Assembly: GCA_003577105.1 (NCBI GenBank)
Contig: QEUQ01000001.1
Coordinates: forward strand, 6,118 to 70,117
Length of the DNA: 64,000 nt
Direction: 5' to 3'
Origin: Acidobacteriota bacterium
GTDB lineage: Bacteria > Actinomycetota > Acidimicrobiia > ATN3
The stretch's first letter is position 1. Each line of letters begins with the position of its first letter. Below are positions 4,836 through 44,051 of the stretch, piece after piece. Under the pieces are notes generated by a model. The model was not told the origin of the DNA. It searched no databases and saw nothing but the letters and a program-made list of their open reading frames with translations. Position numbers and translations under genes: made by a program.

Positions 4836-5375
4836 ATGGCCCCAGTAAAGGTCGTGATAACCGGACCCGAGGGAGTTGGGAAGACTTCCTTCGTCCGCAC
4901 AATCGCGGACATGGTTGTCGCGTCAAACGAGCCTCATCCCAGCGGGGAGGGCCAAGTCACAATTGACTTCGGCCGAATAACGCTAGCCAGAGATCTCGTC
5001 ATTTACTTGTACGGAACGCCGACAAAGGCCGAGCTTCAGCAGCTTTGGGAGACCTGGACTGAGGGAATGCTCGGTTTCATCGTCATGGTTCAGGCTCAGG
5101 ACAAGACCCAGCTCGATGAGGCTGCCGCCTACCTCGAGTACTTTCGCGAAAAGGGTGACTGGCCACATCTCGCTCTCGTGAACATGTGCGGCGATGACAC
5201 CGAGCTTGATTGTCAGATTGTTTCAGAGGTCCTGGGCTTGCCATTCCCCGAGCAGGTTGTTCCAGTCGATGCCCTTGACCGAGAATCAGTCAAAGAGGCT
5301 CTGCTGACCTTCTTGGCGATTGCCATCAATCCAAAGCGAGCCAGAGCACTGGCTCGGGCCAACACGCCCTTCTAG
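4836..5375 (+). CDS. Small Ras-like GTPase / ATP-GTP-binding protein (CvnD / MglA-like)
   Basis: MAPVKVVITGPEGVGKTSFVRT (P-loop) ... VTIDFGRITLARDLVIYLYGTPTK ... VNMCGDD. The pattern matches actinobacterial conservon CvnD-type GTPases. The catalytic Gln that normally follows the GTP(G) motif is absent. Confidence 0.6.
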   Translation: MAPVKVVITGPEGVGKTSFVRTIADMVVASNEPHPSGEGQVTIDFGRITLARDLVIYLYGTPTKAELQQLWETWTEGMLGFIVMVQAQDKTQLDEAAAYLEYFREKGDWPHLALVNMCGDDTELDCQIVSEVLGLPFPEQVVPVDALDRESVKEALLTFLAIAINPKRARALARANTPF

Positions 5376-6250: not shown

Positions 6251-6904
6251 CTAGCCCGCGAGCGCGGACAAGCGCTTGACTAGTTTCTCAATCCCCTCTG
6301 CGATTTCGGGCAAAGGCGCGTCACACATGTAGGCCGGGGTCGAGAGGACTCTTTGCTCGGAATCTTCGACAAAGTCGTTGGCCGGGCACTCGATGTGCTC
6401 AGCGCCCATCTCTTCGAGCGCCGCTGCCGTTCCGGGATCGCTTCCGATCGTCAACTTCACTCCGGGAAGTAGCCGGGCTGCAATTGCAGGGGAGATACAG
6501 ATGAAGCCAATTGGCTTTCCCGCCGAATGCACCTCCTGGACGAACTGCGCCACAGATGGCTCGACCTCACTCGAGGTTCCTTCCGTCGCGAAATTGCTCA
6601 GATTCTTGGCAGCCCCGTATCCGCCTGGAAAGACCAGCGCGTCGAAGTCCTTAGCGCTCACATCTCCGAGTGCCTTGATGTCGCCTCGCGCTATCCTCGC
6701 TGCCTCTTTCAGCACGTTACGAGTCTCTCCGGCTGCCGGCTCGCCCGCCACATGATCGACAACGTGCATTTGGTCGATATCGGGTGCGAGGCACTGATAG
6801 CTGGCCCCGCTCTTCTGCAGGGCCAGAAGTGTGAGGACTGCTTCGTGGATCTCTGAACCGTCAAGGAATCCGCAGCCTGACAAGACAACACCAACCTGAG
6901 CCAT
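6251..6904 (-). CDS. elbB: DJ-1/PfpI-family isoprenoid-biosynthesis protein ElbB (glyoxalase ElbB-like)
   Basis: MAQVGVVLSGCGFLDGSEIHEAVLTLLAL...ALVFPGGYGAAKNL...GFICISPA is a typical ElbB/DJ-1 class I glutamine-amidotransferase-like fold with the conserved Cys. Confidence 0.8.
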   Translation of the reverse strand: MAQVGVVLSGCGFLDGSEIHEAVLTLLALQKSGASYQCLAPDIDQMHVVDHVAGEPAAGETRNVLKEAARIARGDIKALGDVSAKDFDALVFPGGYGAAKNLSNFATEGTSSEVEPSVAQFVQEVHSAGKPIGFICISPAIAARLLPGVKLTIGSDPGTAAALEEMGAEHIECPANDFVEDSEQRVLSTPAYMCDAPLPEIAEGIEKLVKRLSALAG

Positions 6905-6948: not shown

Positions 6949-7467
6949 CTATCCCCCGTTGGATTCCGATTCTGCCGAATATCCACCTTTGCGCGCAGCC
7001 GACATGCCCACCGGGCCAGGAAGCACCGCTTCCAAGTCGAGTAGATATGCAGTCTCTTCACCATGCCGGGCGAGTGCGATCAGGCACGCCTCTCCCCTGC
7101 GCAGAGTCTGAGGCAATGGAGCCCGCGTGGCAGAGACAACTCCGCGTGCCTCATCGACAACGAAACCCACCAAACCTTTGCCCGAGTTGTAGACAAGGAC
7201 GTGCTCGGGGTGATCGGCCTCATGCAAACCAAGAACCTTTGCCAGATTCACAACGGGTACCGCCTCGTCAAGAACTTCGATCATGCCGATCACGTCCTCG
7301 GGAGCCTGCGGTAACGGCCGTATGTCCTCGGCGCGCTGCACCAGACGAATTCGATCCAGCGCAACTGCATGAGGCTCGCCGCCGAGCACAAATGCCAGAA
7401 CTTGCTCAGGCCTTCCCTCGAGAGAAAGATCGCCCTCCGCCGAAACCTGAGGCGTGGCATCGGTCAA
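6949..7467 (-). CDS. cheW: CheW-like coupling protein (second CheW of the operon)
   Basis: A CheW domain is present: EQVLAFVLGGEPHAVALDRIRLVQRAEDIRPLP...VIGMIEVLDEAVPVVNLAKVLGL. The gene overlaps the CheR stop by 4 nt. Confidence 0.85.
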   Translation of the reverse strand: MTDATPQVSAEGDLSLEGRPEQVLAFVLGGEPHAVALDRIRLVQRAEDIRPLPQAPEDVIGMIEVLDEAVPVVNLAKVLGLHEADHPEHVLVYNSGKGLVGFVVDEARGVVSATRAPLPQTLRRGEACLIALARHGEETAYLLDLEAVLPGPVGMSAARKGGYSAESESNGG

Positions 7468-9089
7468 CGTAAGGTGCCGCCTTCAAGCAGGCCCACCTTG
7501 TCGGCACAGAGCTGAATAAGTGCATCGTGACTCATGGACTCAAGATACCCGTCCCACTTGCCCTCATGATCGGCCTCGAGATATCGAAGCGCATTCTTGT
7601 AGTCGATCAGCGACTGATCCCTTTCGCCGAGTGCCTCTAGCAGAGTGGCTCGATAGAAGTACGCAAGAGAAAACTGCGGGTCGCAGTAGACAGCCCGCCC
7701 AAAGGAAGCGAGGGCATCATCATCTGCTCCTAGACGCTGTTGTGCCGAGCCTAGAAGGAAGTGCAACGAGGCTTCTGTCGGAGCCCGCTCGATCGCAGCT
7801 GCGACCAGACTGACGACCTCGTCAACCTGCCCTCGCTCAAGATGACCCTGCGCCGTCGCAACCACCTCCGACAATTCACCGTGCTCGAGCGGAAGATTGC
7901 TTGCCCTCAACGAGGCGACCTCTTCCTCGGCTGACTCGAAATCGTCTCCCGCCGGAGAGCTTGTCTCAAGCGCGCCGGCGCCGATCGCGCCGACCCCGCG
8001 CCCTGAAGCACCCGGACTTGAAGCAATTGCAGGAGTCTCAAGCGGTCTCACTGCCGGAGGCGTGATCGCTTCAATCCCCATCGCCGGAATCTCCGAGCTC
8101 TTAGTAGGTGCTGCGGCGATCGAAGACGTCGGTGCCGCATTGGCGATCGCATAGCTCCGGCTGGAGGCCGCCGGGAGGACTGAATCCGGCACACGTCCCT
8201 CGTACGGCTTCCGATAGACAAAGGAGGTTCCCAGATCTACCAGTTCGAGGCTGTGGGGCTGCCGCCAGAGGCTCTCGGAGTGCCCCAAGAAGAGGTAGCC
8301 CCCGGGGCGCAGGGCAGCCTCGAGTGAGCGGATCGCACGATGAAGCGCATCCTTTGAGAAATAGATGGTCACATTGCAGCAGAAGACGATGTCGCTTATT
8401 CCAGCTGCCGGCGGCTGATCTGCGGACAAATTGTGGGGTGAGAATGTCACAAGCTCAGCAACCTGAGGAATGACGCAATAGGCATCCCTGTCCCGCACAA
8501 ACCACCTTCGCCTGAGCAGATCGGGCACACCTGCGAGATGCCGCTCGTCATATCGCCCACTTCGGGCCCGTTCGAGGATGTCGGTCGAGATATCGGTCGC
8601 CATCACCCTCACCCGCCAACTCGACGCCTCATCACCAAGTGCCTCAAGAACTGAAATGGCGAGCGAGTACGGCTCCTCGCCAGACGAACACCCCGCAGAC
8701 CAGAGTGTCAGCTCCTTTCGCGAAGCGGCATTACGAATCACCTCGGGAAGTACGTTTCTGCGCAGACCTTCGTACTGTGGACGATTTCTGAAGAACTCGG
8801 TTTGATGGATCGCGACCTGGTTCCAGAGTGCCTGAAGTTCACTCGGGTCTGAAGTGGCCAGATCCACATAATCTGCAAACGTCGCGCACCCTACCGCCAG
8901 CGCCCTATCACGCAGGTGAAGCCTGAGGACCTCGCGGCGCTTCTCGTCATAGACCATGCCCGCAGACTCGCTGAGCAGCTTTCGAACACGGGAATACTCG
9001 TCATCGCCAAGGACGGCAAAGGATCCGTCTGCACGCTCCCGCAGGAGCTTGCTCAGCTTGCCTTGCGGAGGTGGTGCTCCCCCGATCAT
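7464..9089 (-). CDS. cheR: CheR protein-glutamate O-methyltransferase with C-terminal TPR repeats (FrzF-like)
   Basis: The CheR N-terminal and SAM-methyltransferase motifs are present (FFRNRPQYEGL, LTLWSAGCSSGEEPYSLAI, FCCNVTIYF). After a low-complexity linker come TPR-like repeats (LHFLLGSAQQRLGADDDALASFGRAVYCDPQFSLAYFYRATLLEALGERDQSLIDYKNALRY). The start is chosen at MIGG (9089), 4 nt after the upstream gene's stop. The ORF is open up to 9158. Confidence 0.8.
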   Translation of the reverse strand: MIGGAPPPQGKLSKLLRERADGSFAVLGDDEYSRVRKLLSESAGMVYDEKRREVLRLHLRDRALAVGCATFADYVDLATSDPSELQALWNQVAIHQTEFFRNRPQYEGLRRNVLPEVIRNAASRKELTLWSAGCSSGEEPYSLAISVLEALGDEASSWRVRVMATDISTDILERARSGRYDERHLAGVPDLLRRRWFVRDRDAYCVIPQVAELVTFSPHNLSADQPPAAGISDIVFCCNVTIYFSKDALHRAIRSLEAALRPGGYLFLGHSESLWRQPHSLELVDLGTSFVYRKPYEGRVPDSVLPAASSRSYAIANAAPTSSIAAAPTKSSEIPAMGIEAITPPAVRPLETPAIASSPGASGRGVGAIGAGALETSSPAGDDFESAEEEVASLRASNLPLEHGELSEVVATAQGHLERGQVDEVVSLVAAAIERAPTEASLHFLLGSAQQRLGADDDALASFGRAVYCDPQFSLAYFYRATLLEALGERDQSLIDYKNALRYLEADHEGKWDGYLESMSHDALIQLCADKVGLLEGGTLR

Positions 9090-9093
9090 CGGG

Positions 9094-10077
9094 TCAGTCC
9101 GTTCGAGTGCGGTCGTAGAGCCTCGCATTGTCGACAACAATGGCCACCGCCGGCTCAATCAGCCGCATGATTGAGAGTTCCTTTTCGGAAAAGGCATTTG
9201 CAACCGGAGCGCTGAGCGCGAGCAGCGCAACAATCTGATTCTGGGCCCTGAGCGGCATGCAGACGAAGGTAGCCAACGGATCCTCGTCTACTTCACCCTG
9301 CCCCATGTTGCCGTCAGGATCGACCATCCAGATATTTACGTCGTCGACATGTACGGGCTCGGCCGCGTAAGCCCCCATGTTCTCGGTGACGTGACTCCCC
9401 ATGGTCTCGAAATCTTCAAAGAGCACCGGCTTGTTGACAAAGATGCCAATGCTCTTCTCCTCGATGAGCGCGACTGCACCCATTGCGAAGTCCACGAAGG
9501 ATCCGATCAGCCCGAGCACCGACGCGATCAGCTCCCCGTAGTCGGAGGACTGTGTCGCCAAAGTTGAAATCTCATTTACAAGCGTCGCCTCGTACAGCTT
9601 TCGATCGAGCATGTCGCTGACGCGCGACAGAATCTCGGCGTCAGTCATCTCCGCCCGCTCTTCGTCCTCCTCACCTGGCCCCTCAGATGGCTCAGCGTTC
9701 TCCAGTGCCTCCCCCACTGCCTCCACAAGCATGGACGCATCGAAATCCTTTGAAAGGTACGCCGTCGCCCCAGTCTTGATGCCTCGATAGCGGTCGGATG
9801 CGGCGTCTTGCGAGGTGAGCATGATGAACGGAATCGCCTCGGCCGACCAGTCCTCTTTGAGAAGCCTGCACACCAGGTAGCCGTTCATCTTGGGCATCAA
9901 GATGTCGCAAATAACCAGGTCAGGGCGCTCAGAGTAGAACTTGCGGATTGCCTCGACCCCATCGTCAGCGAGTACGACGTCGTAGCCCTGCTGAGTCAGA
10001 ACGCTCTTGACGACGCGCTGAAGCGTCACCGAATCGTCTGCGATCAGTATCTTGGCACTACCCAACCGGACTAACAC
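9094..10077 (-). CDS. Response-regulator receiver domain fused to a GAF-like domain
   Basis: The N-terminal REC domain reads KILIADDSVTLQRVV...DLVICDILMPKMNGYLVCRLLK...IPFIMLTS (phospho-acceptor Asp, conserved Lys). The C-terminal ~170 aa have a GAF-like fold (VALIEEKSIGIFVNKP ... ALLALSAPVANAFSEKELSIMRLIEPAVAIVVDNARLY). The gene sits inside the che operon. Confidence 0.75.
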   Translation of the reverse strand: MLVRLGSAKILIADDSVTLQRVVKSVLTQQGYDVVLADDGVEAIRKFYSERPDLVICDILMPKMNGYLVCRLLKEDWSAEAIPFIMLTSQDAASDRYRGIKTGATAYLSKDFDASMLVEAVGEALENAEPSEGPGEEDEERAEMTDAEILSRVSDMLDRKLYEATLVNEISTLATQSSDYGELIASVLGLIGSFVDFAMGAVALIEEKSIGIFVNKPVLFEDFETMGSHVTENMGAYAAEPVHVDDVNIWMVDPDGNMGQGEVDEDPLATFVCMPLRAQNQIVALLALSAPVANAFSEKELSIMRLIEPAVAIVVDNARLYDRTRTD

Positions 10078-11167
10078 CTCTCATCTTCGACAGCACGGTC
10101 GCCGCCATCGCTCCGAGCGGAATGACCGCATCGACCGCCCCTGAATCCAACGCCGCCTTGGGCATGCCGAAAACTGCACAGCTGGCTTCATCCTGGACCC
10201 ACGTCGTGCCGCCTGAATCATGGATGGCTCGCATGCCCGTTGCACCGTCACGCCCCATGCCGGTCAGGATAACGGCAAGCACCGCCTTTCCATAAGCCGA
10301 CGCAAGGCTTTCGAACATGACATCAGCAGAAGGGCAGTGCCCGCCCACCGGCTCATTGCCCTCGAGTGCGACCCGTCCGTTGCGGACGATCATGTGCCGC
10401 CCCTCAGGTGCCACATAAACAACACCGCCCTCTATTACTTCTCCATCATCGGCAAGCTTGACCACAAGGTGAATAGACGCGGACAACCATTGGGCGAATC
10501 CCTCCGTGAACCCCTTGGCTATGTGCTGCACTACAAGAGTCGGCTTGGTGAAGTCAGCGGGCAGGCCGGCGAGAAACTGCCGCAGTGCCTGGGGCCCACC
10601 CGTCGATGCCGCTATCGCGAGGACATCGGCCTCAATCGATGGAGGCTTGATCTGCGAGCCCTCCGGCGGAATTGAGCTTCGCGCGGGGCCCACTGGCTCG
10701 ACTGGTGGTGGCGCAGCACTGGCTGGCGGTGGCCTCTCGTCACTTTGCAGTCGGCCTCGCAGATGCCGGATCACCTTCGCCCTGGCGACGATCCGGATCA
10801 GTGCCGTCAACTCCTTCGCTGCGGCCTCGAAGTCTTCAAGAGCGTTCAGCTCGGGCTTGGGGCTGACGTCAACGGCGCCGCTGGCGAGGGCCTCCATTGC
10901 GACCTCGGAACGCCCCGCCTGATCAGAGATCACAAGAATAGGCAGCGGATTGACCGCCATCAGTTCGTCGATGACCGATATTCCAGACCGACCTGGAAGA
11001 TGAATATCCATGGTCAGGACATCGGGCTCAAGGTCGGGGATCATGTCGACGACCTCCTCACCCGAGCCTGCTATTCCGACAACCTCGATGTCATCGGCGG
11101 TGCGGATCATGCGGCCTAGCAGCTCGCGGTCGGGCTTGGAGTCCTCACATATGACGACCCGTATCAA
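10058..11167 (-). CDS. cheB: CheB protein-glutamate methylesterase (REC + CheB_methylest)
   Basis: REC domain: MIRVVICEDSKPDRELL...VLTMDIHLPGRSG. Methylesterase domain: STGGPQAL...LVVQHIAKGFTEGFAQWL...LTGMGRDGATGM...VQDEASCAVFGMP. The catalytic Ser, His and Asp context is present. Confidence 0.9.
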   Translation of the reverse strand: MIRVVICEDSKPDRELLGRMIRTADDIEVVGIAGSGEEVVDMIPDLEPDVLTMDIHLPGRSGISVIDELMAVNPLPILVISDQAGRSEVAMEALASGAVDVSPKPELNALEDFEAAAKELTALIRIVARAKVIRHLRGRLQSDERPPPASAAPPPVEPVGPARSSIPPEGSQIKPPSIEADVLAIAASTGGPQALRQFLAGLPADFTKPTLVVQHIAKGFTEGFAQWLSASIHLVVKLADDGEVIEGGVVYVAPEGRHMIVRNGRVALEGNEPVGGHCPSADVMFESLASAYGKAVLAVILTGMGRDGATGMRAIHDSGGTTWVQDEASCAVFGMPKAALDSGAVDAVIPLGAMAATVLSKMRGVSPVG

Positions 11168-11170
11168 CGC

Positions 11171-13636
11171 CTATCTCCCAACAAGGCTTCGAAGCGTCTC
11201 GAGAAGCGTGGATTGGTCAAATGATGACTTGACTATGTATGCGTTCGCACCGACCTCGAGCCCGCGCCGCCGGTGCTCCTCTTTGGCAAGACTCGTGACC
11301 ATGATCACAGGGAGGTTCTCATTCTCCGAACGGGATCTGATCCCCTCGACGAGTCCAAACCCGTCTAAACGCGGCATCTCCACATCGGTAATCACGCCAT
11401 CAAACTTCTGCTGTCTGACCTTGGTCAACCCATCTGCGCCGTCGACAGCAACTTCGACCGAGTAGCCGGCTGCCTCAAAAATCGACCGCAACATTTCTCT
11501 GATTGCGAGGGAGTCATCCACAACCAGGATCCGTGCCGGGCGGGCCCCAGCTGCGCTGAGGCCGGTGCGCCGCTGTACCGGCGCAGCTGAGCTGCCGAGT
11601 GGTCGCCGGGCAGTGTCGATCAGTTCATAGGGATCGAGCACAAGGATTACCCGACCGTCTCCAAGAATCGATGCGCCGGCCACATGGCGCATTCGAGGGA
11701 GAAACGATCCAAGTCCCTTGATTACCACTTCCTGCTGGCCGATCAGCTCACCGACCCGGAATGCGACTCGGCGAGTCGCCGTTGCGATCACCACCACCGG
11801 CCCGTCCGGTATCTCATCTTCAGGCAAGGACAGGACCTTGTGGAGCGGAACAAGCGAGGTTGTCTGGTCTCGCAGTACCACGGCCTCGCGCCCGCCGACG
11901 TTCTGTACGTCGTGCTCGGGGACACCGACAACTTCCTCAACGGCCGAGACCGGGATCGCGAACTCCTGCCCTCCGATATTCACCAAGATTGCTTCGATGA
12001 TTGCGAGAGTTATCGGGAGGGTGATCGAAAAGACGGTCCCGTCGCCGGGAACCGAATCGATGTCAACAGTTCCCTTGAGCCGATCAACTGCCTCCTTGAC
12101 CACATCGAGCCCGACGCCGCGCCCTGACGTGTCGGTGACAATTCCAGCAGTGGAGAACCCGGCCTTGAAGAGAAGTGCAAGAGCCTCCTGGTTGGATAGC
12201 TCATCCCCCTCGTCGATCAGTCCCTTCCTAACCGCGCTCGCCTTGACGGCCTCCGGCGAAATTCCGCGGCCGTCATCGCGCACCTCGATCACTACCTGCC
12301 TGCCCTGTTGACGAGCAGTAACAGTGAGCGAGCCTCGTCGGGGCTTGCCGGAAGCCTCGCGCTCTTCAGGCGGCTCAATGCCGTGATCAACGGCGTTGAT
12401 CAGGAGATGCCGGATCGGGTCAACGATCTGTTCGAGTACTTGCTTGTCGAGTTCTGTCCCCCCGCCGTCGAGTTGGAGATCGACTTCCTTGCCCAACTCA
12501 CGACAGAGATTCCGGATCAGACGAGGGAATGGAGCAAATATGGATGCCGTCGGGAGCATCGCGAGGCGCATCGACTGCTCCTGGAGACGATCAAGGCCGC
12601 GGCTTTGACCGCGAAGTGTCTCGGCCAACTGGGCAGACAAGACTCCGACCCGCTCTCGCAGTTCGTCGAGGATCCCGACAAGCTCCGGATCGCCCTCTTT
12701 GTGCCTCATCCGGCGAAGCCGGCCCTCGAGCGAGCGCATTGTTTCCGTCAGACCCTTGGAGACCTCCTCAAGGCGGACCTCACCGATTACAACCTCACCG
12801 ACCTGATCGATCAGCTCATAGAGCTTCCCGGCCTCAATCCTGATTGACTGCCCGATCGGGTTGACGAAGCCCTCGTTTCTCGCTCCGGCAGGTCCGGCCG
12901 GAGCCTCTTCGGCCTCCGCCGCGAGCACCTCTATTGCGCTGTCGGCCGGAACCTCGATCTCAGCCGAGTCGCTAGGCGAAACCACATCGTCGTCGTGGGA
13001 GACAGCTCGTCGTTCTCCGGAAATCCTTGCTGCCCCAAGGAGCGATGCTCCCTGCTCGCCTCCGCCACCCTTGGCATCTGAAATGTCGCCGGAAGCAGGC
13101 GTGGTCGCGCTCTCCTCGCTCGAAGACGACTGCTTTCGCATGAGACGCCCTGGGCTAGTTGGGATTTCGCGCGGCGGAGATTTCTCTTTCGTCGTTGAAG
13201 GTGGGGCTGGCTTGGGAGCGGTAGTAGGGGGCGGCTGGAATCCCGCACCAGGTCTCGCCGCCTCGAGGCGGCCGAGCAGCGCCTCTGCAGCCGGAGGCAA
13301 GGTGGAAGGGTCTTCGCCATCGTCGAGCAGACCGAGAATTGCGTCTGAGGATTCGAGGAGAAGGTCGGCGAGATCGCCGGTCAGGGGGAGCTGCCCTTCC
13401 TTGACGTCACCGAGAACATCCTCCATGCGGTGAGCAACCTCTTTGACGGCCCCGAAGCCCATCATCTTCGCCGAGCCCTTGATCGTGTGGGCATCACGGA
13501 ATATCGCGTTCATCACATCGATGTTGTCAGGCTGGGATTCGAGCTGAAGCAGGCCTGACTGCAGCGAGGAGAGGCGCTCACCCACCTCGGTCTTGAACGT
13601 CGCGAGAAGTCCCTCGTCCTGAATCCAGGTGCTCAT
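11171..13636 (-). CDS. cheA: CheA histidine kinase fused to a C-terminal receiver (FrzE-type CheA-CheY hybrid)
   Basis: Hpt domain (IFRDAHTIKGSAKMMGF), a long Pro/Ser/Ala-rich linker, dimerisation plus HATPase_c (LINAVDHGIE...DDGRGIS...GRGVGLDVV), a CheW-like domain, then a REC domain (ARILVVDDSLAIREMLRSIF...VITDVEMPRLDGFGLV...IMVTSLAKEE...AYIVKS). Confidence 0.9.
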   Translation of the reverse strand: MSTWIQDEGLLATFKTEVGERLSSLQSGLLQLESQPDNIDVMNAIFRDAHTIKGSAKMMGFGAVKEVAHRMEDVLGDVKEGQLPLTGDLADLLLESSDAILGLLDDGEDPSTLPPAAEALLGRLEAARPGAGFQPPPTTAPKPAPPSTTKEKSPPREIPTSPGRLMRKQSSSSEESATTPASGDISDAKGGGGEQGASLLGAARISGERRAVSHDDDVVSPSDSAEIEVPADSAIEVLAAEAEEAPAGPAGARNEGFVNPIGQSIRIEAGKLYELIDQVGEVVIGEVRLEEVSKGLTETMRSLEGRLRRMRHKEGDPELVGILDELRERVGVLSAQLAETLRGQSRGLDRLQEQSMRLAMLPTASIFAPFPRLIRNLCRELGKEVDLQLDGGGTELDKQVLEQIVDPIRHLLINAVDHGIEPPEEREASGKPRRGSLTVTARQQGRQVVIEVRDDGRGISPEAVKASAVRKGLIDEGDELSNQEALALLFKAGFSTAGIVTDTSGRGVGLDVVKEAVDRLKGTVDIDSVPGDGTVFSITLPITLAIIEAILVNIGGQEFAIPVSAVEEVVGVPEHDVQNVGGREAVVLRDQTTSLVPLHKVLSLPEDEIPDGPVVVIATATRRVAFRVGELIGQQEVVIKGLGSFLPRMRHVAGASILGDGRVILVLDPYELIDTARRPLGSSAAPVQRRTGLSAAGARPARILVVDDSLAIREMLRSIFEAAGYSVEVAVDGADGLTKVRQQKFDGVITDVEMPRLDGFGLVEGIRSRSENENLPVIMVTSLAKEEHRRRGLEVGANAYIVKSSFDQSTLLETLRSLVGR

Positions 13637-13646
13637 GGAGATCCGA

Positions 13647-14120
13647 TCATGCGACTGCCTCTTCGAGGCGGGTTCTGAGCGAAATCAGAATCGCGGGATC
13701 GATGATCGCTATCACCGAGTCGTCGCTCCTCAAGTGACCGACCAGGTACGGGCGGAGTCCTTCAGGCAGTCCGGCAAGCGGCGGATCCAGGCCCTCTTCG
13801 CCAAGTGGTACCACGCCTTCGACGGCGTCTACGAGAAGTCCGGCGAGCATGTCATCGTGAGAGAGGATCAGCATTCGGTGACCGGAAAGAACTTCGTCAC
13901 CGCCCTCTAGATCAAACAGTGCGTGCAGATCGAGCAGAGCGACGATGTTGCCCCGCAAACTGCAGACACCGACGACGAAGCGGTCCGTCCCCGGTATGGG
14001 GGTAACCGGCGGCACACGTCCGATCTCACGCACTGCATCGAGAGAAATGCCATATCGCTCACCCCCGAGTTTGAAGACGACGAAGCCTGATGGCATTTCT
14101 TCTGAGATCTCCCCTGACAC
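13647..14120 (-). CDS. cheW: CheW-like coupling protein (first gene of the che operon)
   Basis: CheW domain: FVVFKLGGERYGISLDAVREIGRVPPVTPIPGTDRFVVGVCSLRGNIVALLDLHALF. Confidence 0.85.
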   Translation of the reverse strand: MSGEISEEMPSGFVVFKLGGERYGISLDAVREIGRVPPVTPIPGTDRFVVGVCSLRGNIVALLDLHALFDLEGGDEVLSGHRMLILSHDDMLAGLLVDAVEGVVPLGEEGLDPPLAGLPEGLRPYLVGHLRSDDSVIAIIDPAILISLRTRLEEAVA

Positions 14121-14178: not shown

Positions 14179-15750
14179 TCATTCCCACTCAATAGTCGCT
14201 GGCGGCTTTGAGCTTATGTCGTAGGCCACGCGGTTCACACCCGGCACTTCGTTGATTATTCGCGATGAGACCTTCTCCAGCAGCTCATACGGGAGCCTGG
14301 CCCAGTCCGCCGTCATCGCGTCATCACTGGTTACAGCCCTGATGATGATCGGATAGGCGTAAGTGCGCTCGTCTCCCATGACCCCAACCGACTTGATCGC
14401 CGGGAGTACGGCAAAGCTCTGCCAAAGCTCCCGGTATAGCCCCGCGGTCCTCACCTCCTCGAGCAAGACCGCGTCGGCGTGCCTGAGAATTTCGAGCCGC
14501 TCATGGGTCACGTCGCCGATGATTCTCACCGCTAGTCCGGGGCCGGGAAATGGCTGGCGCCAGACGATTTCCTCTGGAAGGCCGAGCTCCTCGCCCACGA
14601 CCCGCACCTCATCTTTGAAGAGGTCTCGCAGCGGCTCGACCAACTCGAATTTCATATCGTCGGGAAGCCCCCCAACGTTGTGGTGGCTCTTGATCTTTGC
14701 GGCGTCCTTCGTACCAGACTCGATGATGTCTGGATACAGGGTGCCCTGTACGAGAAATGGCGCTGTGTCGAGCGCTTCTCCATCAGGGCCGAGTGATGCG
14801 TCGTGTGCTACTTCTTCAAAGACTCTGATGAAGGTCTCGCCGATGATCTTGCGCTTGGCTTCGGGATCGGTCACGCCCGCGAGTCTCTCGAGAAACCGGT
14901 CTGCGGACTTCGCTTCGACAAGGTTGAAGCCCATCCGATTTCGGAATGTGTCAACGACCTTCTCAGGTTCGTCTCGGCGCATCAGACCGTGGTCGACAAA
15001 GACGCAGGTCAGCTGCTCGCCGACTGCCTTGTGCACAAGCGCGGCCGCGACGGCGGAATCGACCCCGCCCGATAGTCCGCAGATGATCCTGTCCCCGCCA
15101 ACACGAGCTCGAATTTCGGCGATGGACTGCTCGATCACCGATACCATCGTCCAAGTGGGCTGGGCTCCGCATACATCAAACAGAAATCGCTTGAGGATCT
15201 CTTGCCCTCGTTCGGAGTGCGCAACCTCGGGGTGAAATTGAACGCCGAAAAAGCCACGCTCGCGATCTTCGAACGCTGCCACCGGTACTGCCGCGGTCGT
15301 GGCAGTTACATCGAAACCTGGTGGCACCTCGACTATCGAATCTCCGTGGCTCATCCAAACAACCTGTTGGCCCGGAAGCTCACGAAAGAGAGGGGAGCTC
15401 GACGTCACATCGATCTCGGTGCGCCCGTATTCTCCTGTACCTGTTCGAGAAACGGATCCACCAAGATCTCTGGCCATCAGCTGTGCGCCATAGCAAATTC
15501 CCAAGATCGGCACACCTGTGTCAAATACAGCATTGTCAACCGACGGAGCCCCCTCGACATGAACGGACTTGGGACCTCCGGAGAAGATGACTCCCTTGGG
15601 CCTGACTGCGCGGATCCGCTCCGCAAGGCCTTCGCGAGGAACGATCTCGGAGTAGACCTTGGCCTCTCGCACGCGCCTGGCAATCAGCTGTGCGTACTGC
15701 GCACCGAAATCGACAACGAGAATGGTGTCGAATTCAGCGGACTTGGCCAC
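14179..15750 (-). CDS. guaA: GMP synthase (glutamine-hydrolysing)
   Basis: N-terminal class I GATase ([20 protein letters not shown]...[10 protein letters not shown]), an ATP-PPase SGGVDS motif, and the C-terminal dimerisation domain ending ...PPATIEWE. Confidence 0.95.
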
Positions 15751-15873: not shown

Positions 15874-17727
15874 CTAGCCCGGGTATCCAGTCACGGCGGT
15901 GTCGAGCAGGAATGCCGGATAGACCATGCCGGAGGCACGATTCACGCCGACTTCTACCGGCAGTAGTCCGGCAATTGATCCGACCTGGGTGAAGCCAGTT
16001 GTCTCGTAGACGAAGACTGCTCCATCTTGGTGAGATGAGACATAGATCTTCGAGCCATCGTTGCTGACTTTGACCGAAACGACCTCTCTTCCGATTGGCA
16101 CGCTTGCGATCAAGCTTGACGTGGCGAGATCCACAACTGAGAGATCTCCGGATTCGAGGTTGGATGTGTATAGACGGCCCGTTCCGGGGTGTACGGCAAC
16201 CTCGAGTGGGCTCTGCCCAACCGAAATCGTGTTGACCACCGAATTGGTGGCTCCGTCAAAGACAACCACCTGATCCTGGTTCTCGTCAGTGATATAGACC
16301 AAATTGTTTGCCTCGTCAACGGTTACGTCGGCCGGCGCCCACCCGACTGGGTATTCCCCGATGACGGCATTTGTTACCCCGTCGATTACCCCCAGACTTC
16401 CGCCAAAGGTCTTCGCGAAGTAAACCCGGTTGGTGTTCCGATTCACGTCAAGCCCTCTTGGGAGGGCAAAGCCGAGATCTATCTGGGTGATCATGGCGTT
16501 GCTTGCCGCGTCGATGACGCTGATCTTGCTCTCCTCAAATTGCGACGCGTAGACACGCCCAGTTGTCTCATTGGAGGCAATTCCCCAAGGGAATGTCTTG
16601 CCGACTGCATGGTCCGCGACCTTCACACCTGTCGAAAGGCTCACTATCGGCAACGTCGGTGTTGGGAGACCGGGGAAGCCCCACCTTCCGACATACATCT
16701 TGCCCAGCGCGTTGTTCACGTTGACTGCAATTGGGAATTCGCCAACCGAATATGTTGGATTGGCCGCGCCTGAGCCATCGAGCGTCGAAACCGTGTTCGA
16801 TCCCGTATTCGCCACATAGACACGATTGAGAAGAGTGTCGATGCTCACTCCCCAAGGTGAGTTCTCGACGGCAACGGTGCTCGAGACCGTAAGCGTGGCA
16901 CCATCTATCACGGTCACGTTGTTTGAGCCCGAATTCGTGACGTACGCGTACCCGGTGAGCGAGTTCACTGCTACCCCCGCCGGGCTCGTGCCGACTGGGA
17001 TCGTGGCAACCACCGCGTTCGTGACCCCATCGATCACCGAGACCGTGTTACTTGCCACGTTGGCTACGTAGATCCGATTCGCAACCATGTCGGCTGCGAC
17101 ACCTCGCGGATTCGATCCCACGACTACGGTAGCCAATGTCGCGTACGTGTCCCCGTCGATGACCGTGACTTGGTTCTGCTGGTGGCTCGACGCGTAGACC
17201 CGTCCGGTCGCCGAATTCACCCCGATGCCGCGGGGTCGCCGCCCCGCGGTGATCGAAGCAATCAGCGTGTCGGTGGCGCCGTCGATTACACCCACGTTGT
17301 CCGACTGAAAATTGGCCGTGTAGATCTTATTTCTCGACTCATCGACCGCCACCCCCCAGGGCTGCTTGCCAACTTCGAAAGTCTTCGAAACGGTCCAGGT
17401 ATCGCCATCAACCACCGCCAATGAATCCATCGATCGGAGTGCGATGTAGTACTTGTTGGTCACGGTGTTGACGGCGACAGAAGCCGGAGCCGCCGGCAGC
17501 GCAATCGTGGCCACTACCGTGTGTGTCTGAATGTCAATCACCGACGCGGAAGTCTCGCCGCTATTCGCCGCGAGGGCGTATCGGGTGTTAGGGTTTGCCG
17601 CGACTCCTTCTGGTGCCACCCCGACGGGGATGCTCACGGCGGCGTTGGCAACGGTCGGCCACAAGCCGAGTAGAAGGATCGTCACAGCGAGCAGAGCCGC
17701 GACGGCTCTCGCCTCGCGCACGACCAA
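15874..17727 (-). CDS. Secreted YVTN-family beta-propeller repeat protein (about 12 repeats of ~40 aa)
   Basis: Many repeats of the form ...N.VYVAN.GSNTVSVID..T..VVATI.VG..P.GVAV.... A signal peptide (RAVAALLAVTILLLGLWPTVANA, AxA cleavage site) follows a TTG start at 17727. The longest ORF extends to 17862. Confidence 0.75.
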   Translation of the reverse strand: MVVREARAVAALLAVTILLLGLWPTVANAAVSIPVGVAPEGVAANPNTRYALAANSGETSASVIDIQTHTVVATIALPAAPASVAVNTVTNKYYIALRSMDSLAVVDGDTWTVSKTFEVGKQPWGVAVDESRNKIYTANFQSDNVGVIDGATDTLIASITAGRRPRGIGVNSATGRVYASSHQQNQVTVIDGDTYATLATVVVGSNPRGVAADMVANRIYVANVASNTVSVIDGVTNAVVATIPVGTSPAGVAVNSLTGYAYVTNSGSNNVTVIDGATLTVSSTVAVENSPWGVSIDTLLNRVYVANTGSNTVSTLDGSGAANPTYSVGEFPIAVNVNNALGKMYVGRWGFPGLPTPTLPIVSLSTGVKVADHAVGKTFPWGIASNETTGRVYASQFEESKISVIDAASNAMITQIDLGFALPRGLDVNRNTNRVYFAKTFGGSLGVIDGVTNAVIGEYPVGWAPADVTVDEANNLVYITDENQDQVVVFDGATNSVVNTISVGQSPLEVAVHPGTGRLYTSNLESGDLSVVDLATSSLIASVPIGREVVSVKVSNDGSKIYVSSHQDGAVFVYETTGFTQVGSIAGLLPVEVGVNRASGMVYPAFLLDTAVTGYPG

Positions 17728-18030
17728 AGCCTGGCGGAGACTAAGTGTCAACGCATATGTTCGGCGCCGGTCCCCTGCCACAGCTGATCGTCTCAGCTCT
17801 AAATCGCTCGCTGCTTGTGGCACTCGCTCGCTACCCCTTGTTGTAACTGCCCGGCATCGCACAGAAATGTGCTGAAAACTTCATGGTTCCATCGACTCCG
17901 AACACCGGCACTTAAGTACAGATTCCCTGGTACCGGTAGATCTGGACGTACCCAAACTGATGGGTAATACCGTGAGCTGGGATTTCGCGGGCACACGGTA
18001 CCGAAGTACCATGAAAAAGGTCCTAAAGGA

Positions 18031-18810
18031 CTAGTCCGCGAATTGCCCCTTGAGCGGGGTCAACTCGGGGGAATTCGCGCCGGACGGCGGGCCCCATTGG
18101 TCGCGCAGATCGCTTGAATCGCTTGAGTGCTGTGGCGACATTCCATATTCAGGTTGGTCCGAATAAGTCCGGTTCAACGGCAACGATGGAGCAGCCAGCC
18201 TGGCGCTATCAGATTGCGAATCGTCCGGACCTGTCGAAATCGCATAAATGTCAACTTGCAGCTCCCGAGATGCCTTCCAGCTCCAGCCAATCCAGCCGGC
18301 GACTCCGACCACAACACCGATAGTCAATGCCGTGAGAACAATCGGCAGGAGGTCCGATGCCGAGTACCAGCCATCACGGGCCATAAACATTGGGTAGCTG
18401 ATCCGCTGAAACCCCGGGTTTGACCGAAGCGTCAGCGGTACCGCGACGACCCAAAACGCCAGGCTCGCCCAGAAGGCCCCAGCGACCGACCAGAAGAGGC
18501 GCGCCATGCCCTCGAGTCGCCGCTGTGCAAGAGCGGCTGCGAACGCAATTCCCAACGCGAACGCGGCACTGTAGAGGGGTCGCAACATGCGATCTAGGTA
18601 ATCGGATGTCAACCAGAGCATCGCAATACCGATCTGAGTGAGGACACCGATCAGAAGCACCTCGATTACCCGGCCGCGGGTGGGGCGCTCCCTCCGGGGA
18701 ATCCGCAGTCGCTTGCCCATGGCCTTGCCCGAGGCCAGAGGCGCGTCATCTGTCGCACCAGGAGTTTGGCCGGACCCGAACGGCTGCGACTCGATTGCTG
18801 AGGTGGGCAT
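18031..18810 (-). CDS. Hypothetical integral membrane protein (about 4 TM helices, Pro/Gly-rich cytoplasmic N-terminus)
   Basis: The hydrophobic segments IEVLLIGVLTQIGIAMLWL, LYSAAFALGIAFAAAL, FWSVAGAFWASLAFWVVAVPL and LLPIVLTALTIGVVVGVAGWIGW look like TM helices. I recognise no known domain. Its start overlaps the guaB3-like gene's stop. Confidence 0.5.
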   Translation of the reverse strand: MPTSAIESQPFGSGQTPGATDDAPLASGKAMGKRLRIPRRERPTRGRVIEVLLIGVLTQIGIAMLWLTSDYLDRMLRPLYSAAFALGIAFAAALAQRRLEGMARLFWSVAGAFWASLAFWVVAVPLTLRSNPGFQRISYPMFMARDGWYSASDLLPIVLTALTIGVVVGVAGWIGWSWKASRELQVDIYAISTGPDDSQSDSARLAAPSLPLNRTYSDQPEYGMSPQHSSDSSDLRDQWGPPSGANSPELTPLKGQFAD

Positions 18811-32222: not shown

Positions 32223-32636
32223 TCACGGAGAAAGCGCGGCCGCTACGGCGAGGGCAAGTTCACGAGAGTGCGTGAGTGAGATCTCGATGCGCGCAATCCC
32301 GAGAACTTGTGCTCGTCGGGCCGCGCTACCGGTCAGAAGCACACCGGGTTTTCCGTCGCCGGTCACGCAAATCTCCCTCCAGGCAACTTGCCCCAGCCCA
32401 ATTCCCATCGCCTTCATCACAGCCTCTTTCGCGGCAAAACGAACTGCAAAGTGCTTCGCCGTATTGACTCTTGCCTCGCAGTATTGGCGCTCCTCCGGTG
32501 CGAAGACACGCTCGACAAATCGAGGTCTCTTCGCAATCGCGGCGCCAATCCTTTCGATCTCAATTGCATCAATCCCGAGTCCGATCACTGACGAAGGACC
32601 GCTGGAGTCACCGAGGATCGTGTCTGTCTGCGTCAT
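32223..32636 (-). CDS. acpS: Holo-[acyl-carrier-protein] synthase (4'-phosphopantetheinyl transferase)
   Basis: VIGLGIDAIEIERI ... the typical AcpS core of 120-137 aa. The true start may be the internal GTG at about 32588. Confidence 0.85.
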   Translation of the reverse strand: MTQTDTILGDSSGPSSVIGLGIDAIEIERIGAAIAKRPRFVERVFAPEERQYCEARVNTAKHFAVRFAAKEAVMKAMGIGLGQVAWREICVTGDGKPGVLLTGSAARRAQVLGIARIEISLTHSRELALAVAAALSP

Positions 32637-34546: not shown

Positions 34547-34960
34547 TCGCCGGAATTGTCCACTCCAGCTGTGCCTCTGTCGCCGGCGTTTCCGCCGGGT
34601 TTTCTTCACAACTGTCACGACTGTGGTCGCCGAGGGGTACCCGCCGAGTGTTTCGATAACCGGTGTTGGACTCGCTTCAATTCAAGTCACCCTCTGCTGG
34701 AATATGCAGAGCGCCGATTCAAACCCCTACCTCGTCACCCTTGACGTCCCCCGGGATTCCAGAACCGGGGGCCCCGCCGGCATAGCCGCCGGGGGTCAAG
34801 GGCCAGGCGCTTCGATATTCGATTTTGCATCGCCCGGACCCGATCAGAAATTGAATCAATCGAGTCCAAGACGCCTTCGTGCTGCATTCCGCAACTGATC
34901 AAGTCTAGTGCCGAAATCAGCGGCAGACACTCAAATTGCGCCCGTCCGGTCAAGTCCCAC

Positions 34961-43277: not shown

Positions 43278-44051
43278 TCAGCCGAATCTTCCCGTCACAT
43301 AGGCTTCAGTACGCTCATCGCCGGGATTGGTGAAAATCTTGGACGTCTCATCCATCTCGATCAAGCGCCCAGGCTCCCCGGCCCCTGCGATCGTGAAGAA
43401 TGCTGTCACATCACTTACACGCGCTGCTTGTTGCATGTTGTGGGTCACGATCACGATCGTGTAGCGCTCCTTCAGCTCATGGATCAAGTCCTCGATCTTC
43501 AGGGTCGATATCGGATCGAGCGCTGAGCACGGCTCATCCATGAGCAATACAGCAGGCTCCACTGCAATAGCTCGGGCGATACAAAGCCGCTGCTGCTGTC
43601 CACCTGAGAGGCCACCACCCGGGTTGTTCAACCGGCTGCTGACTTCATCCCACAGTCCGGCAAGCTTCAGGGACCGCTCGACTGCGGAATCCAAGGTGTC
43701 CTTGTTCTTGACCCGATTGAGCCTGAGGCCCGAAGCGACGTTGTCATAGATCGACATCGTCGGGAACGGGTTCGGCCTCTGGAAGACCATTCCTATCTGT
43801 CGGCGCACCAATACCGGATCGATGCTTTCTCCGTATATGTCAATTTCGTCAAGGTGGACTGTGCCTTCAATTCGCGCACCCGGTACCACCTCATGTAAGC
43901 GGTTGATCGTGCGAATGAGGGTCGACTTTCCACACCCTGACGGCCCGATGAGTGCTGTTACCCGGGCAGGCTCGATCACCATTGAGACGTCTTCAACGGC
44001 CTTGTGAGCGCCAAAGTACGCACTCACGGCGTCAACTGAAACCCTTTTCAC
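43278..44051 (-). CDS. pstB: Phosphate ABC transporter ATP-binding protein
   Basis: Walker A (GPSGCGKST), the [14 protein letters not shown] signature and Walker B ([11 protein letters not shown]). The length matches PstB. Confidence 0.95.

What the first reader, a model, noticed from the sequence alone, without database searches (positions are those of the whole stretch)
6949..14120. Six-gene chemosensory operon with Frz-like architecture but no receptor (MCP) and no stand-alone CheY
The operon reads CheW, then a CheA-REC hybrid, CheB, a REC-GAF protein, CheR fused to TPR repeats, and a second CheW. The genes are tightly packed on the minus strand with gaps or overlaps of 10 nt or less (about 65 nt at the cheR 5' end if the longest ORF is used). 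A hybrid CheA with a C-terminal receiver and a Pro-rich linker, a CheR with C-terminal TPR repeats and two CheW proteins are the hallmarks of the Myxococcus Frz system, which controls a Ras-like GTPase rather than flagella. Yet nowhere in the 64 kb is there a methyl-accepting chemotaxis protein, a separate CheY, or any flagellar or pilus gene. CheB and CheR are present but their usual substrate, an MCP, is absent. So the input must come from elsewhere in the genome or through the embedded REC-GAF protein. The operon sits in otherwise conserved housekeeping sequence, directly downstream of guaA.
Basis: partly seen in the sequence, partly recalled or inferred. Interest (0 to 1): 0.8.

Follow-up and report, generated by a model that had tools for sequence, protein, structure and literature searches.

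The report
Wsp-like chemosensory operon, receptor encoded elsewhere
This is a real six-gene signalling operon of the non-motility ("alternative function") chemosensory type that is common in Actinobacteria-like bacteria; its missing receptor gene sits at another conserved site in close relatives, and the job of its receiver-GAF output protein is still unknown.

Summary
On the minus strand, right after guaA, lie cheW, cheA-REC, cheB, REC-GAF, cheR-TPR and cheW, packed within 10 nt. A profile search finds no MCP in the 64 kb, and there is no single-domain CheY and no flagellar or pilus gene.

The Frz reading is only partly right. A hybrid CheA, a CheR-TPR and two CheWs are general marks of ACF-class pathways. 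The closest relative found is a Wsp-like cluster, CheW-MCP-CheA/REC-CheB-REC/GAF/GGDEF-CheR/TPR. Its regulator aligns with the window's REC-GAF over the full length (39% identity). REC-GAF therefore looks like the output regulator, a GGDEF-less relative of a WspR-like cyclase, not the input.

About 70 actinobacterial loci keep CheA/REC next to REC-GAF with an MCP directly upstream. Only the window's lineage (five loci) lacks it there. That lineage has an orphan 40H, multi-transmembrane MCP at a conserved dxs-melibiase-MCP-dnaE site. In a sister MAG it is in the same assembly as the operon. In closer relatives its contigs match the window's tetranucleotide signature (r = 0.96). I did not find it in the window's own MAG.

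Verdict: a new variant of a known kind, a split ACF system whose output function is unknown. Interest is moderate.

The parts
14179..15750 (-). guaA (GMP synthase). It is the conserved gene immediately upstream and may be co-transcribed with the operon.
   Evidence: Pfam GATase plus GMP_synt_C. guaA precedes cheW in all five loci of the window lineage, with a gap of only 3 nt in L003, L088 and L089 and 20 nt in L004. It also lies upstream of the Acidimicrobiia cluster L007. The scan found no terminator-like site in the 58-nt spacer, and its hairpin is not significant (z = 0.85).
13647..14120 (-). cheW1, the coupling protein just upstream of cheA.
   Evidence: Pfam CheW, 111 bits. It is 36% identical to the CheW of L007 and to that of L092.
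11171..13636 (-). cheA-REC hybrid kinase: P1 (His50 in HTIKGS), a Pro-rich linker with no P2, P3, P4, P5 and a C-terminal receiver (Asp751).
   Evidence: Pfam domains and motifs read from the translation. This is RIK11350.1, locus tag DCC49_00095. It is 41% identical to the CheA-REC of the Wsp-like cluster L092 and 46% to that of Acidimicrobiia L007. Some source databases name its homologues WspE or FrzE.
10058..11167 (-). cheB, the REC-methylesterase that removes receptor methyl groups.
   Evidence: Pfam CheB_methylest, 216 bits, and above the NCBIfam CheB cut-off. Asp54, Ser188, His215 and Asp307 are invariant across the lineage and in L092 (alignment A4).
9094..10065 (-). REC-GAF response regulator, the proposed dedicated output of the pathway.
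   Evidence: Pfam REC, 94 bits, plus weak GAF hits. A GAF-only profile matches the GAF domains of PtsP (E = 5e-6), NifA and DevS. Asp10/11, Asp54, Thr84 and Lys106 are invariant (alignment A1). An orthologue sits directly after cheA in about 70 actinobacterial loci. It is 39% identical over residues 6-321 to the REC-GAF part of a REC-GAF-GGDEF protein at the same position in L092.
7464..9089 (-). cheR-TPR, a methyltransferase with a C-terminal TPR domain.
   Evidence: Pfam CheR at 179 bits, with TPR_17 and TPR_2 just above their cut-offs. The SAM-binding motif WSAGCSSGEEPY, NVTIYF and the C-terminal TPR block are conserved in the lineage, in L092 and in L007 (alignment A5).
6949..7467 (-). cheW2, a second and more divergent coupling protein.
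   Evidence: Pfam CheW, 69 bits. It is present in the four window-lineage loci that extend this far (window, L003, L004, L089) and absent from L007, L092 and the four-gene actinomycete clusters.
4836..5375 (+). Small Ras-superfamily (MglA/CvnD-like) P-loop protein. It is a conserved neighbour of the cluster, and its link to the pathway is only positional.
   Evidence: It is homologous (phmmer E = 5e-36) to the Ras/Rab-like GTPase that abuts cheR in L007 and L011. The G1 motif is intact, but G3 (LYGTPTK against FGTPGQ) and G4 (VNMCG against ANKTG) are degenerate in the window lineage (alignment A2).

Best explanation
The operon encodes the cytoplasmic core of an ACF-class (alternative cellular function), Wsp-like chemosensory pathway. 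The pathway was inherited vertically in an Actinomycetota-like lineage, and its receptor gene has moved to another chromosomal site.

Proposed mechanism. Steps marked S are shown by sequence or comparison here; steps marked I are inferred.
- (I) A 40H-class MCP with an N-terminal block of several transmembrane helices and no recognisable sensor domain forms a complex with CheW1/CheW2 and the P5 domain of CheA. This MCP is encoded near dxs and dnaE in relatives.
- (S) CheA has an intact P1 histidine and kinase core. (I) It passes phosphate to three intact receivers: its own C-terminal REC, CheB, and the REC-GAF protein.
- (S) CheR-TPR and CheB have intact catalytic residues. (I) They adapt the pathway by methylating and demethylating the MCP.
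- (S) REC-GAF is the conserved partner gene of CheA-REC across the family and is homologous to REC-GAF-GGDEF cyclases. (I) Lacking the cyclase domain, the phosphorylated protein most likely acts by GAF-mediated dimerisation or partner binding, possibly on c-di-GMP or cell-envelope functions.

The system does not control flagella or pili.
For: - Domains and intact catalytic or phospho-acceptor residues.
- The same six-gene operon follows guaA in L003, L004 and L089. L088 is cut off inside the gene after cheA. CheA identity among these loci is 55-100%.
- The syntenic Acidimicrobiia locus reads guaA-(2 genes)-MCP-x-MCP-CheW-CheA/REC-REC/GAF-CheR/TPR-GTPase.
- A scan of GTDB species representatives with the REC-GAF alignment hit 276 loci, nearly all Actinomycetota. 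Wherever the upstream flank is visible, the order is CheW-MCP(-MCP)-CheA/REC-REC/GAF.
- The Wsp-like cluster L092 has the same gene order and a REC-GAF-GGDEF with intact GGEEF and RxxD motifs. Every window protein has a homologue there at 33-41% identity.
- Orphan MCP: P0134 lies on another contig of the assembly that holds the L003 operon. Its orthologue family splits into two clades that mirror the two CheA clades. The site dxs-melibiase-MCP-HisKA-dnaE is conserved.
- The contigs carrying the window-clade MCP match the window's tetranucleotide signature at r = 0.96, against 0.94 for a same-assembly control, and share its GC content of 0.596.
- Orphan and in-cluster MCPs align without gaps across the signalling domain. 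Both show the two symmetric 14-residue insertions relative to Tsr that are expected of class 40H, the class linked with ACF systems (PMC10746217).
- CheR-TPR genes mark ACF clusters with multi-domain regulators (PMC3447774).
Against: - The MCP was not found in the window's own organism. No member of the orthologue clusters comes from the NCBI MAG or from runs SRR7051044/5. Its presence there rests on relatives.
- The same-assembly link for the sister species is a MAG bin and could be a binning error.
- ACF class was not assigned with the MiST class models.
- Nothing shows what REC-GAF does. The single-sequence structure model was too poor to use (pLDDT 53, with the GAF part below 50).
- Phosphotransfer and methylation are inferred from conserved residues only.
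Confidence: 0.68

Rival explanations
1. The system truly has no receptor in this organism. The MCP has been lost, and CheA-REC, CheB and CheR have been repurposed, for example with input through the GAF domain or the CheA receiver and with a substrate for CheR/CheB that is not an MCP.
For: No MCP in the 64 kb. No orthologue sourced from the NCBI MAG or from SRR7051044/5 appears among the best hits or cluster members. GAF domains are typical ligand sensors.
Against: The catalytic residues of CheB and CheR and both CheWs are conserved across the lineage. The orphan MCP is conserved, with a near-invariant hairpin region, in both subclades, including organisms whose tetranucleotide signature matches the window at r = 0.96. 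MAGs and short-read assemblies are often incomplete. CheR and CheB have no established substrate other than MCPs (general knowledge).
Confidence: 0.12
2. It is a Frz-type polarity or motility pathway whose output is the neighbouring MglA-family small GTPase.
For: The architecture fits: CheA-REC, CheR-TPR and two CheWs. A Ras-superfamily GTPase stays within about 3 kb of the 3' end of the cluster in the Acidimicrobiia loci and in the four window-lineage loci that extend that far, and abuts cheR in L007 and L011. CvnD-type GTPases of Actinobacteria belong to the MglA family (PMC4316618).
Against: There is no FrzZ-like dual receiver. There is no cytoplasmic FrzCD-type receptor; the lineage's MCP has several transmembrane helices. 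No MglB/Roadblock gene and no gliding or pilus gene lies nearby. G3 and G4 of the GTPase are degenerate in exactly this lineage. The roughly 70 actinomycete loci have no such GTPase within 10 kb. The flanking housekeeping genes are syntenic as well, so proximity may carry no functional meaning.
Confidence: 0.08
3. The output is c-di-GMP, produced in trans. The GGDEF-less REC-GAF controls a separate diguanylate cyclase, for example the REC-GGDEF at 42375-43256, or competes with it for phosphate from CheA.
For: REC-GAF is homologous over its full length to the regulatory half of a REC-GAF-GGDEF with an intact active site, found in a related cluster. REC-GAF-GGDEF-sized relatives (505-506 aa) also occur among the library representatives. 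A REC-GGDEF gene lies 30 kb away in the window.
Against: The window's REC-GGDEF sits beside the pst/phoU genes and is only generically similar to the L092 protein: 33% in the GGDEF domain and 29% in REC. There is no linkage or co-occurrence evidence.
Confidence: 0.1
4. It is an ordinary flagellar chemotaxis operon that happens to be separated from its receptors and its CheY.
For: Orphan MCP genes are common in motile bacteria (general knowledge).
Against: The CheA is a hybrid without a P2 domain, CheR carries TPR repeats, and the regulator is multi-domain. The MCP is class 40H. The conserved neighbours across about 90 related loci include no flagellar genes; they are FtsH-like, VanW/PG-binding and GH123-like.
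Confidence: 0.02

Closest known systems
Wsp system of Pseudomonas (WspA-F, WspR)
   Same: Two CheW proteins (WspB/D), a CheR-TPR (WspC), a hybrid CheA-REC (WspE), a CheB (WspF) and a multi-domain receiver protein as output. The sub-order CheW-CheA/REC-CheB-regulator matches wspD-E-F-R. A related cluster (L092) has a REC-GAF-GGDEF cyclase at the regulator position.
   Different: No MCP in the operon. The regulator has a GAF domain and no GGDEF domain, so it cannot make c-di-GMP itself. cheR and the second cheW lie after the regulator. The lineage's MCP has a multi-transmembrane N-terminus rather than a periplasmic domain. The host is Actinomycetota-like, and CheR-TPR was reported as nearly absent from Gram-positives (PMC3447774).
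Frz system of Myxococcus xanthus (FrzA, B, CD, E, F, G, Z)
   Same: A CheA-CheY hybrid with a Pro-rich linker (FrzE), a CheR-TPR (FrzF), a CheB (FrzG) and two CheWs (FrzA/B). An MglA-family-like GTPase gene is nearby.
   Different: No FrzZ dual-receiver output and no cytoplasmic FrzCD receptor. No MglB, gliding or type IV pilus genes. The GTPase is CvnD-like and degenerate. Sequence relatives lead to Wsp-like and actinobacterial clusters, not to myxobacteria.
Actinobacterial CheW-MCP-CheA/REC-REC/GAF four-gene clusters (Frankiales, Mycobacteriales, Acidothermaceae, Sporichthyaceae; uncharacterised)
   Same: Orthologous CheA-REC (38-46% identity) and REC-GAF (39-44%), adjacent and in the same order. 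The MCPs are 40H with multiple transmembrane helices.
   Different: Those clusters keep the MCP in place and lack CheB, CheR-TPR and the second CheW. The window's version keeps the adaptation enzymes and has moved the MCP elsewhere.
Conservon / actinobacterial G-protein systems (CvnA-D, MfpB)
   Same: The neighbouring small GTPase shares the CvnD-like DFGRI...LYLFGTPGQ pattern. I recognised this pattern from memory. The MglA-family membership of CvnD is from PMC4316618.
   Different: It stands alone, with no CvnA, CvnB or CvnC genes nearby, and its motifs are degenerate in the window lineage. Any link to the che operon is positional only.

Membership tests
Chemosensory pathway, ACF class (Wuichet-Zhulin / MiST) | The CheA-CheW core, with CheB and CheR | tested here: met
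   Pfam and NCBIfam hits and intact catalytic residues.
Chemosensory pathway, ACF class (Wuichet-Zhulin / MiST) | A cognate MCP, typically class 40H | tested here: inconclusive
   Absent from the window. An orthologous orphan MCP with the 40H pattern is present in the sister assembly and in near relatives. It was not found for the window's own MAG.
Chemosensory pathway, ACF class (Wuichet-Zhulin / MiST) | A multi-domain response regulator instead of CheY, a CheR-TPR, and no linkage to flagellar or pilus genes | tested here: met
   REC-GAF and CheR-TPR. No motility genes in the window or among the conserved neighbours of relatives. The criteria are taken from PMC3447774.
Chemosensory pathway, ACF class (Wuichet-Zhulin / MiST) | Assignment by class-specific CheA/CheB/CheR/CheW profile HMMs | not testable with these tools
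   The MiST class models are not available here. Only source-given names of homologues (WspE, FrzE) were seen.
Frz system | A FrzE-like CheA-REC, a FrzF-like CheR-TPR, FrzG, and two CheWs | tested here: met
   Domain architecture. The match is by architecture only; no orthology to the myxobacterial proteins was shown.
Frz system | A FrzCD-type cytoplasmic MCP encoded in the cluster | tested here: not met
   No MCP in the operon. The lineage's MCP has 3-6 predicted transmembrane segments.
Frz system | A FrzZ dual-receiver output | tested here: not met
   The only stand-alone regulator in the operon is REC-GAF.
Frz system | Coupling to the MglA/MglB module and to gliding or type IV pilus machinery | tested here: inconclusive
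   An MglA-family-like GTPase is nearby but degenerate. No MglB or motility genes lie within 64 kb. A functional link cannot be tested here.
Wsp system | WspB/D, WspC (CheR-TPR), WspE (CheA-REC) and WspF (CheB) | tested here: met
   plus homologues at 33-41% identity in the Wsp-like cluster L092. Orthology to the Pseudomonas proteins was not tested.
Wsp system | A WspR-type output in which REC is fused to an active GGDEF cyclase | tested here: not met
   The protein ends after the GAF domain (323 aa) with no GGDEF hit. The homologue in L092 does carry GGEEF.
Wsp system | A membrane MCP (WspA) encoded at the head of the operon | tested here: not met
   guaA is followed directly by cheW, with a 58-nt spacer.
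Actinobacterial CheA/REC + REC-GAF module (operational family defined here) | Orthologous REC-GAF encoded downstream of an orthologous hybrid CheA | tested here: met
   Alignment A1 with invariant phospho-acceptor residues. 276 loci, of which 80 were inspected. In the window, cheB is inserted between the two genes.

The most novel reading that the evidence does not exclude
REC-GAF is a new kind of chemosensory output. When phosphorylated it would act through its GAF domain on the conserved neighbouring MglA/CvnD-family small GTPase, or on envelope and c-di-GMP enzymes. That would give largely non-motile Actinomycetota a Frz/MglA-like or Wsp-like surface or envelope-sensing circuit. In the window's lineage the circuit would be further rewired: receptor relocated, GTPase motifs degenerate, adaptation enzymes retained. 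The more extreme version is that this organism has lost the MCP altogether and runs a receptor-free Che core.
Probability: 0.12. Interest if true: 0.75.

Novelty: new variant of a known kind. Interest (0 to 1): 0.42.

Why it matters
ACF chemosensory pathways are numerous, but only a few (Wsp, Frz, Che3 and the like) have a known output. This operon belongs to a family found in at least 276 species-level genomes, almost all of them Actinomycetota MAGs. In that family the regulator paired with CheA is a REC-GAF protein with no enzymatic or DNA-binding domain. The loci compared here look like a reductive series:
- a Wsp-like form with a REC-GAF-GGDEF regulator;
- the window's type, with GGDEF lost and the MCP relocated;
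- the Acidimicrobiia type, with CheB also lost;
- the four-gene actinomycete type, with CheR also lost.

The order of that series was not tested phylogenetically. If it holds, it gives a natural framework for asking how a chemosensory output can work without an effector domain, and what such systems sense in mostly non-motile bacteria. For genome annotation, the practical lesson is that a missing MCP in a che operon should be checked against the whole genome before it is called receptor-less.

Tried and rejected
- Structure of REC-GAF. Only a single-sequence AlphaFold run was allowed, because locus-derived homologues are not accepted as input. It gave pLDDT 53, with the GAF domain below 50, so I ran no fold search.
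- Finding the MCP of the window's own organism. The L007 MCP and then P0134 were used as queries. I inspected cluster members and looked up P0245, P0356 and P0246. All came from other sequencing runs. Look-ups and homologue searches are now exhausted; P0247 and P0248 remain unchecked.
- The genome-contig scan did not return the window's lineage at all; the best REC-GAF identity was 44%. The organism is therefore apparently not among the GTDB representatives, or its locus is masked there.
- The GAF-only search of 1.84 billion representatives was swamped by giant multi-GAF proteins and gave only a rough view of architectures.
- A terminator or attenuator between guaA and cheW1: the hairpin is no better than shuffled sequence and the scan found no terminator there.
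- A literature search for a described CheA/REC-GAF system in Actinobacteria found none. One paper notes rare ACF classes in Actinobacteria (PMC10746217).
- The first all-against-all neighbour clustering timed out. I repeated it with a reduced ORF set. Spurious antisense ORFs in these GC-rich loci limit its resolution.
- I considered whether the window's REC-GGDEF is the detached cyclase half of the regulator and rejected it. The similarity is only generic and the gene sits in a pst context.


Full report
**Observation**

The six minus-strand genes are exactly as described. In order they are:
- CheW (13647-14120);
- a CheA with Hpt, dimerisation, ATPase, P5 and a C-terminal receiver (11171-13636);
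- CheB (10058-11167);
- a REC-GAF protein (9094-10065);
- CheR with C-terminal TPR repeats (7464-9089);
- a second CheW (6949-7467).

With the gene starts called on independent Logan contigs, the spacings are 10, 3, -8, 4 and -4 nt. The 65-nt overlap arises only if the longest CheR ORF is used. guaA ends 58 nt upstream. The CheA linker (about residues 125-260) is Pro/Ser/Ala-rich and no P2 domain is detected.

Functional residues are intact. CheA has His50 in HTIKGS, the N, G1, F and G2 boxes, and Asp751. CheB has Asp54 and the Ser188/His215/Asp307 triad. CheR has WSAGCSSGEEPY and NVTIYF. REC-GAF has Asp10/11, Asp54, Thr84 and Lys106.

The window holds no MCP. An HMM built from 95 MCPs of related loci, run without filters on every six-frame ORF of 30 aa or more, gives a best E-value of 2.5. 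The remaining genes I scanned are housekeeping: groEL, metG, tsaBDE, alr, glmS, glmM, rplM, truA, pstSCAB-phoU and others. None is a flagellar or pilus gene.

**Source organism**

The CheA is RIK11350.1 (DCC49_00095) from a MAG that NCBI labels Acidobacteria. All relatives of the che proteins, the gene order around the operon, and the best solved GroEL match (M. tuberculosis GroEL2) point instead to an Actinomycetota-like lineage. One sister-clade protein is labelled Acidimicrobiia.

**What the operon belongs to**

The same six genes directly follow guaA in L003, L004 and L089. L088 begins the same way but is cut off inside the gene after cheA. CheA identity to the window in these four further loci is 55-65%, and none has an MCP within the sequence held.

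In an Acidimicrobiia MAG the syntenic locus reads IMPDH-x-guaA-x-MCP-x-MCP-CheW-CheA/REC-REC/GAF-CheR/TPR, followed by a Ras-like GTPase, an AMP-binding enzyme and, further on, UvrD.

A scan of GTDB species representatives with a REC-GAF alignment found 276 loci. The 80 best are nearly all Actinomycetota (Frankiales, Mycobacteriales, Acidothermaceae, Sporichthyaceae, Acidimicrobiia). Wherever the upstream flank is visible, the order is CheW-MCP(-MCP)-CheA/REC-REC/GAF, usually without CheB or CheR.

So CheA-REC plus REC-GAF is a conserved module whose receptor is normally adjacent. The window's lineage is the exception.

**The closest architecture is Wsp-like**

A probable Thermoleophilia-related MAG (L092) encodes CheW, an MCP (Mcp40H-20 sensor, HAMP), CheA/REC, CheB, REC-GAF-GGDEF and CheR/TPR. 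The window's REC-GAF aligns with that regulator over residues 6-321 (39% identity, E = 2e-73), including the linker and the end of the GAF domain. The L092 protein then continues into a GGDEF domain with intact GGEEF and RxxD motifs. CheA, CheB, CheR and CheW are 41, 40, 33 and 36% identical between the two clusters.

Two Frz-defining parts, FrzZ and a cytoplasmic in-cluster FrzCD, were tested and are absent. The Wsp-defining REC-GGDEF output is also absent. The operon therefore works like these systems but is a member of neither.

The GAF domain is genuine. A GAF-only profile matches the GAF domains of PtsP (5e-6), NifA and DevS.

**Where the receptor is**

Using the Acidimicrobiia in-cluster MCP as query, I found P0134. 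It is a 545-aa protein with only an MCPsignal Pfam domain, on contig VAPR01000603.1 of GCA_006214125.1. That is the same assembly that carries the MCP-less operon L003 on VAPR01000113.1.

Searching with P0134 returned a tight orthologue family with two clades. One (about 70% identity to P0134) includes a protein labelled Acidimicrobiia. The other comprises P0245/P0356, P0246, P0248 and P0247. The two clades are about 50% identical to each other, which mirrors the two CheA clades at 60-65%.

Every locus I examined has the MCP at a conserved site downstream of dxs and a melibiase-family gene, near a HisKA-only gene and dnaE.

The contigs carrying P0245/P0356 have the window's GC content (0.596). 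Their tetranucleotide signature correlates with the window's (bases 20001-64000) at r = 0.96. The same-assembly control gives 0.94, the P0246 contig L103 gives 0.89, and loci of other lineages give 0.55-0.80.

The orphan MCPs have an N-terminal block of several hydrophobic helices and no recognised sensor or HAMP domain, like the in-cluster MCPs of L007 and L006. In the signalling domain, the orphan MCPs and the in-cluster MCPs L007b, L006b and P0136 align with each other without gaps; L007a diverges. Apart from L007a/b, whose tip motif was not matched, they end 142-144 residues after the hairpin tip. The gaplessly aligned MCPs show two symmetric 14-residue insertions relative to Tsr. This is the pattern expected of class 40H, the class associated with ACF systems (PMC10746217).

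Caveat: none of the orthologue clusters contains a sequence from the NCBI MAG or from runs SRR7051044/5. For the window's own genome the MCP is inferred, not shown.

**Mechanism proposed**

- A relocated 40H multi-transmembrane MCP would couple through CheW1/CheW2 to CheA.
- CheA~P would feed its own receiver, CheB and REC-GAF.
- CheR-TPR and CheB would provide adaptation.
- Phosphorylated REC-GAF would be the output.
- Because REC-GAF is the regulatory half of a cyclase-type regulator without the cyclase, it most plausibly acts by dimerisation or partner binding.

The conserved neighbours in actinomycete loci are an FtsH-like protease upstream and VanW/PG-binding and GH123-like proteins downstream. 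L092 has sortase, Wzy, CpsB and MMPL genes around the cluster. Together with the sensor-less membrane receptor, these hint at an envelope-related role. That hint is weak.

Co-transcription with guaA is possible, with a 3-nt gap in L003, L088 and L089 and no convincing terminator in the window, but it is untested.

A 179-aa P-loop protein at 4836-5375 is homologous (E = 5e-36) to a Ras/Rab-like small GTPase that abuts cheR in the Acidimicrobiia loci. That GTPase resembles MglA and has CvnD-like motifs (using sequences from memory; family context from PMC4316618). In the window lineage the G3 and G4 motifs are degenerate. The four-gene actinomycete clusters lack any such neighbour. The link to the che operon is positional only.

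**Verdict**

The operon is real, conserved and apparently functional. The missing receptor is best explained by relocation. The Frz label should be replaced by "ACF-class, Wsp-like, with a GGDEF-less REC-GAF output". The family has not been characterised experimentally, as far as the searchable literature shows. That, rather than the absence of an MCP, is what makes it moderately interesting.

Noticed in passing
window 4836-5375 (+): A small Ras-superfamily (MglA/CvnD-like) P-loop protein. Its homologue abuts cheR in Acidimicrobiia loci. In the window lineage the G1 motif is kept but G3 (GQ lost) and G4 (NK lost) are degenerate, so it may be a pseudo-GTPase.
   Followed up: partly
window 42375-43256 (-): A REC-GGDEF (WspR/PleD-like architecture, RYGGEEF motif intact) sits next to pstB/A/C/S and phoU (43278-48286) and a HisKA kinase / OmpR-type regulator pair (48277-50352). 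It is only generically similar to the REC-GAF-GGDEF of L092.
   Followed up: partly
window 34557-34822 (-): A glmS ribozyme (Rfam RF00234, 62.9 bits) lies upstream of glmS (32633-34474). The match spans 266 nt for a 167-position model, so it carries an insertion.
   Followed up: no
whole window: The source MAG is labelled Acidobacteria at NCBI (RIK11350.1, DCC49_00095). Synteny (guaB-guaA, pcrA, groEL, tsaBDE-alr, rplM-glmM), the che-protein relatives and the best solved GroEL match (M. tuberculosis GroEL2) all suggest an Actinomycetota-like lineage. The lineage was not detected among the GTDB species representatives.
   Followed up: partly
window 6251-6904 (-): A DJ-1/PfpI family gene lies 44 nt after cheW2 on the same strand and may be co-transcribed. 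It is present only in the window's subclade; the sister clade has an ABC1/UbiB gene on the opposite strand there.
   Followed up: no
window 15874-17862 (-) and 18031-18810 (-): An NHL-repeat beta-propeller protein (662 aa) and a 259-aa protein with no Pfam hit lie between the IMPDH-like gene and guaA. They are replaced by other genes (NAPRTase and a small ORF) in the sister clade.
   Followed up: no
L090 13702-14724; L095 7083-8141; L101 11630-12688: A 340-352-aa protein with only a HisKA domain on record (no ATPase domain listed) is conserved next to or near the orphan MCP and dnaE in both MCP clades.
   Followed up: no
L092 4372-12882 (also L093, L094): A complete Wsp-like cluster in a probable Thermoleophilia-related MAG: CheW, a 40H MCP with an Mcp40H-20 sensor domain, CheA/REC, CheB, REC-GAF-GGDEF and CheR/TPR. 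It is flanked by Wzy, sortase and CpsB genes on one side and an MMPL gene on the other.
   Followed up: partly
L008-L087 (for example L006 3767-7237, L012 11437-13761, L043 17783-20356): The four-gene actinomycete clusters have conserved neighbours: an FtsH-like AAA/M41 protease upstream (38 loci), and a VanW/PG_binding_4 protein (26 loci) and a GH123-like protein (45 loci) downstream.
   Followed up: partly
L082, L083: Two loci with typical actinomycete-type CheA/REC-REC/GAF modules come from MAGs labelled Spirochaetaceae and Acidobacteria. Mis-binning or mislabelling is the likely cause.
   Followed up: no
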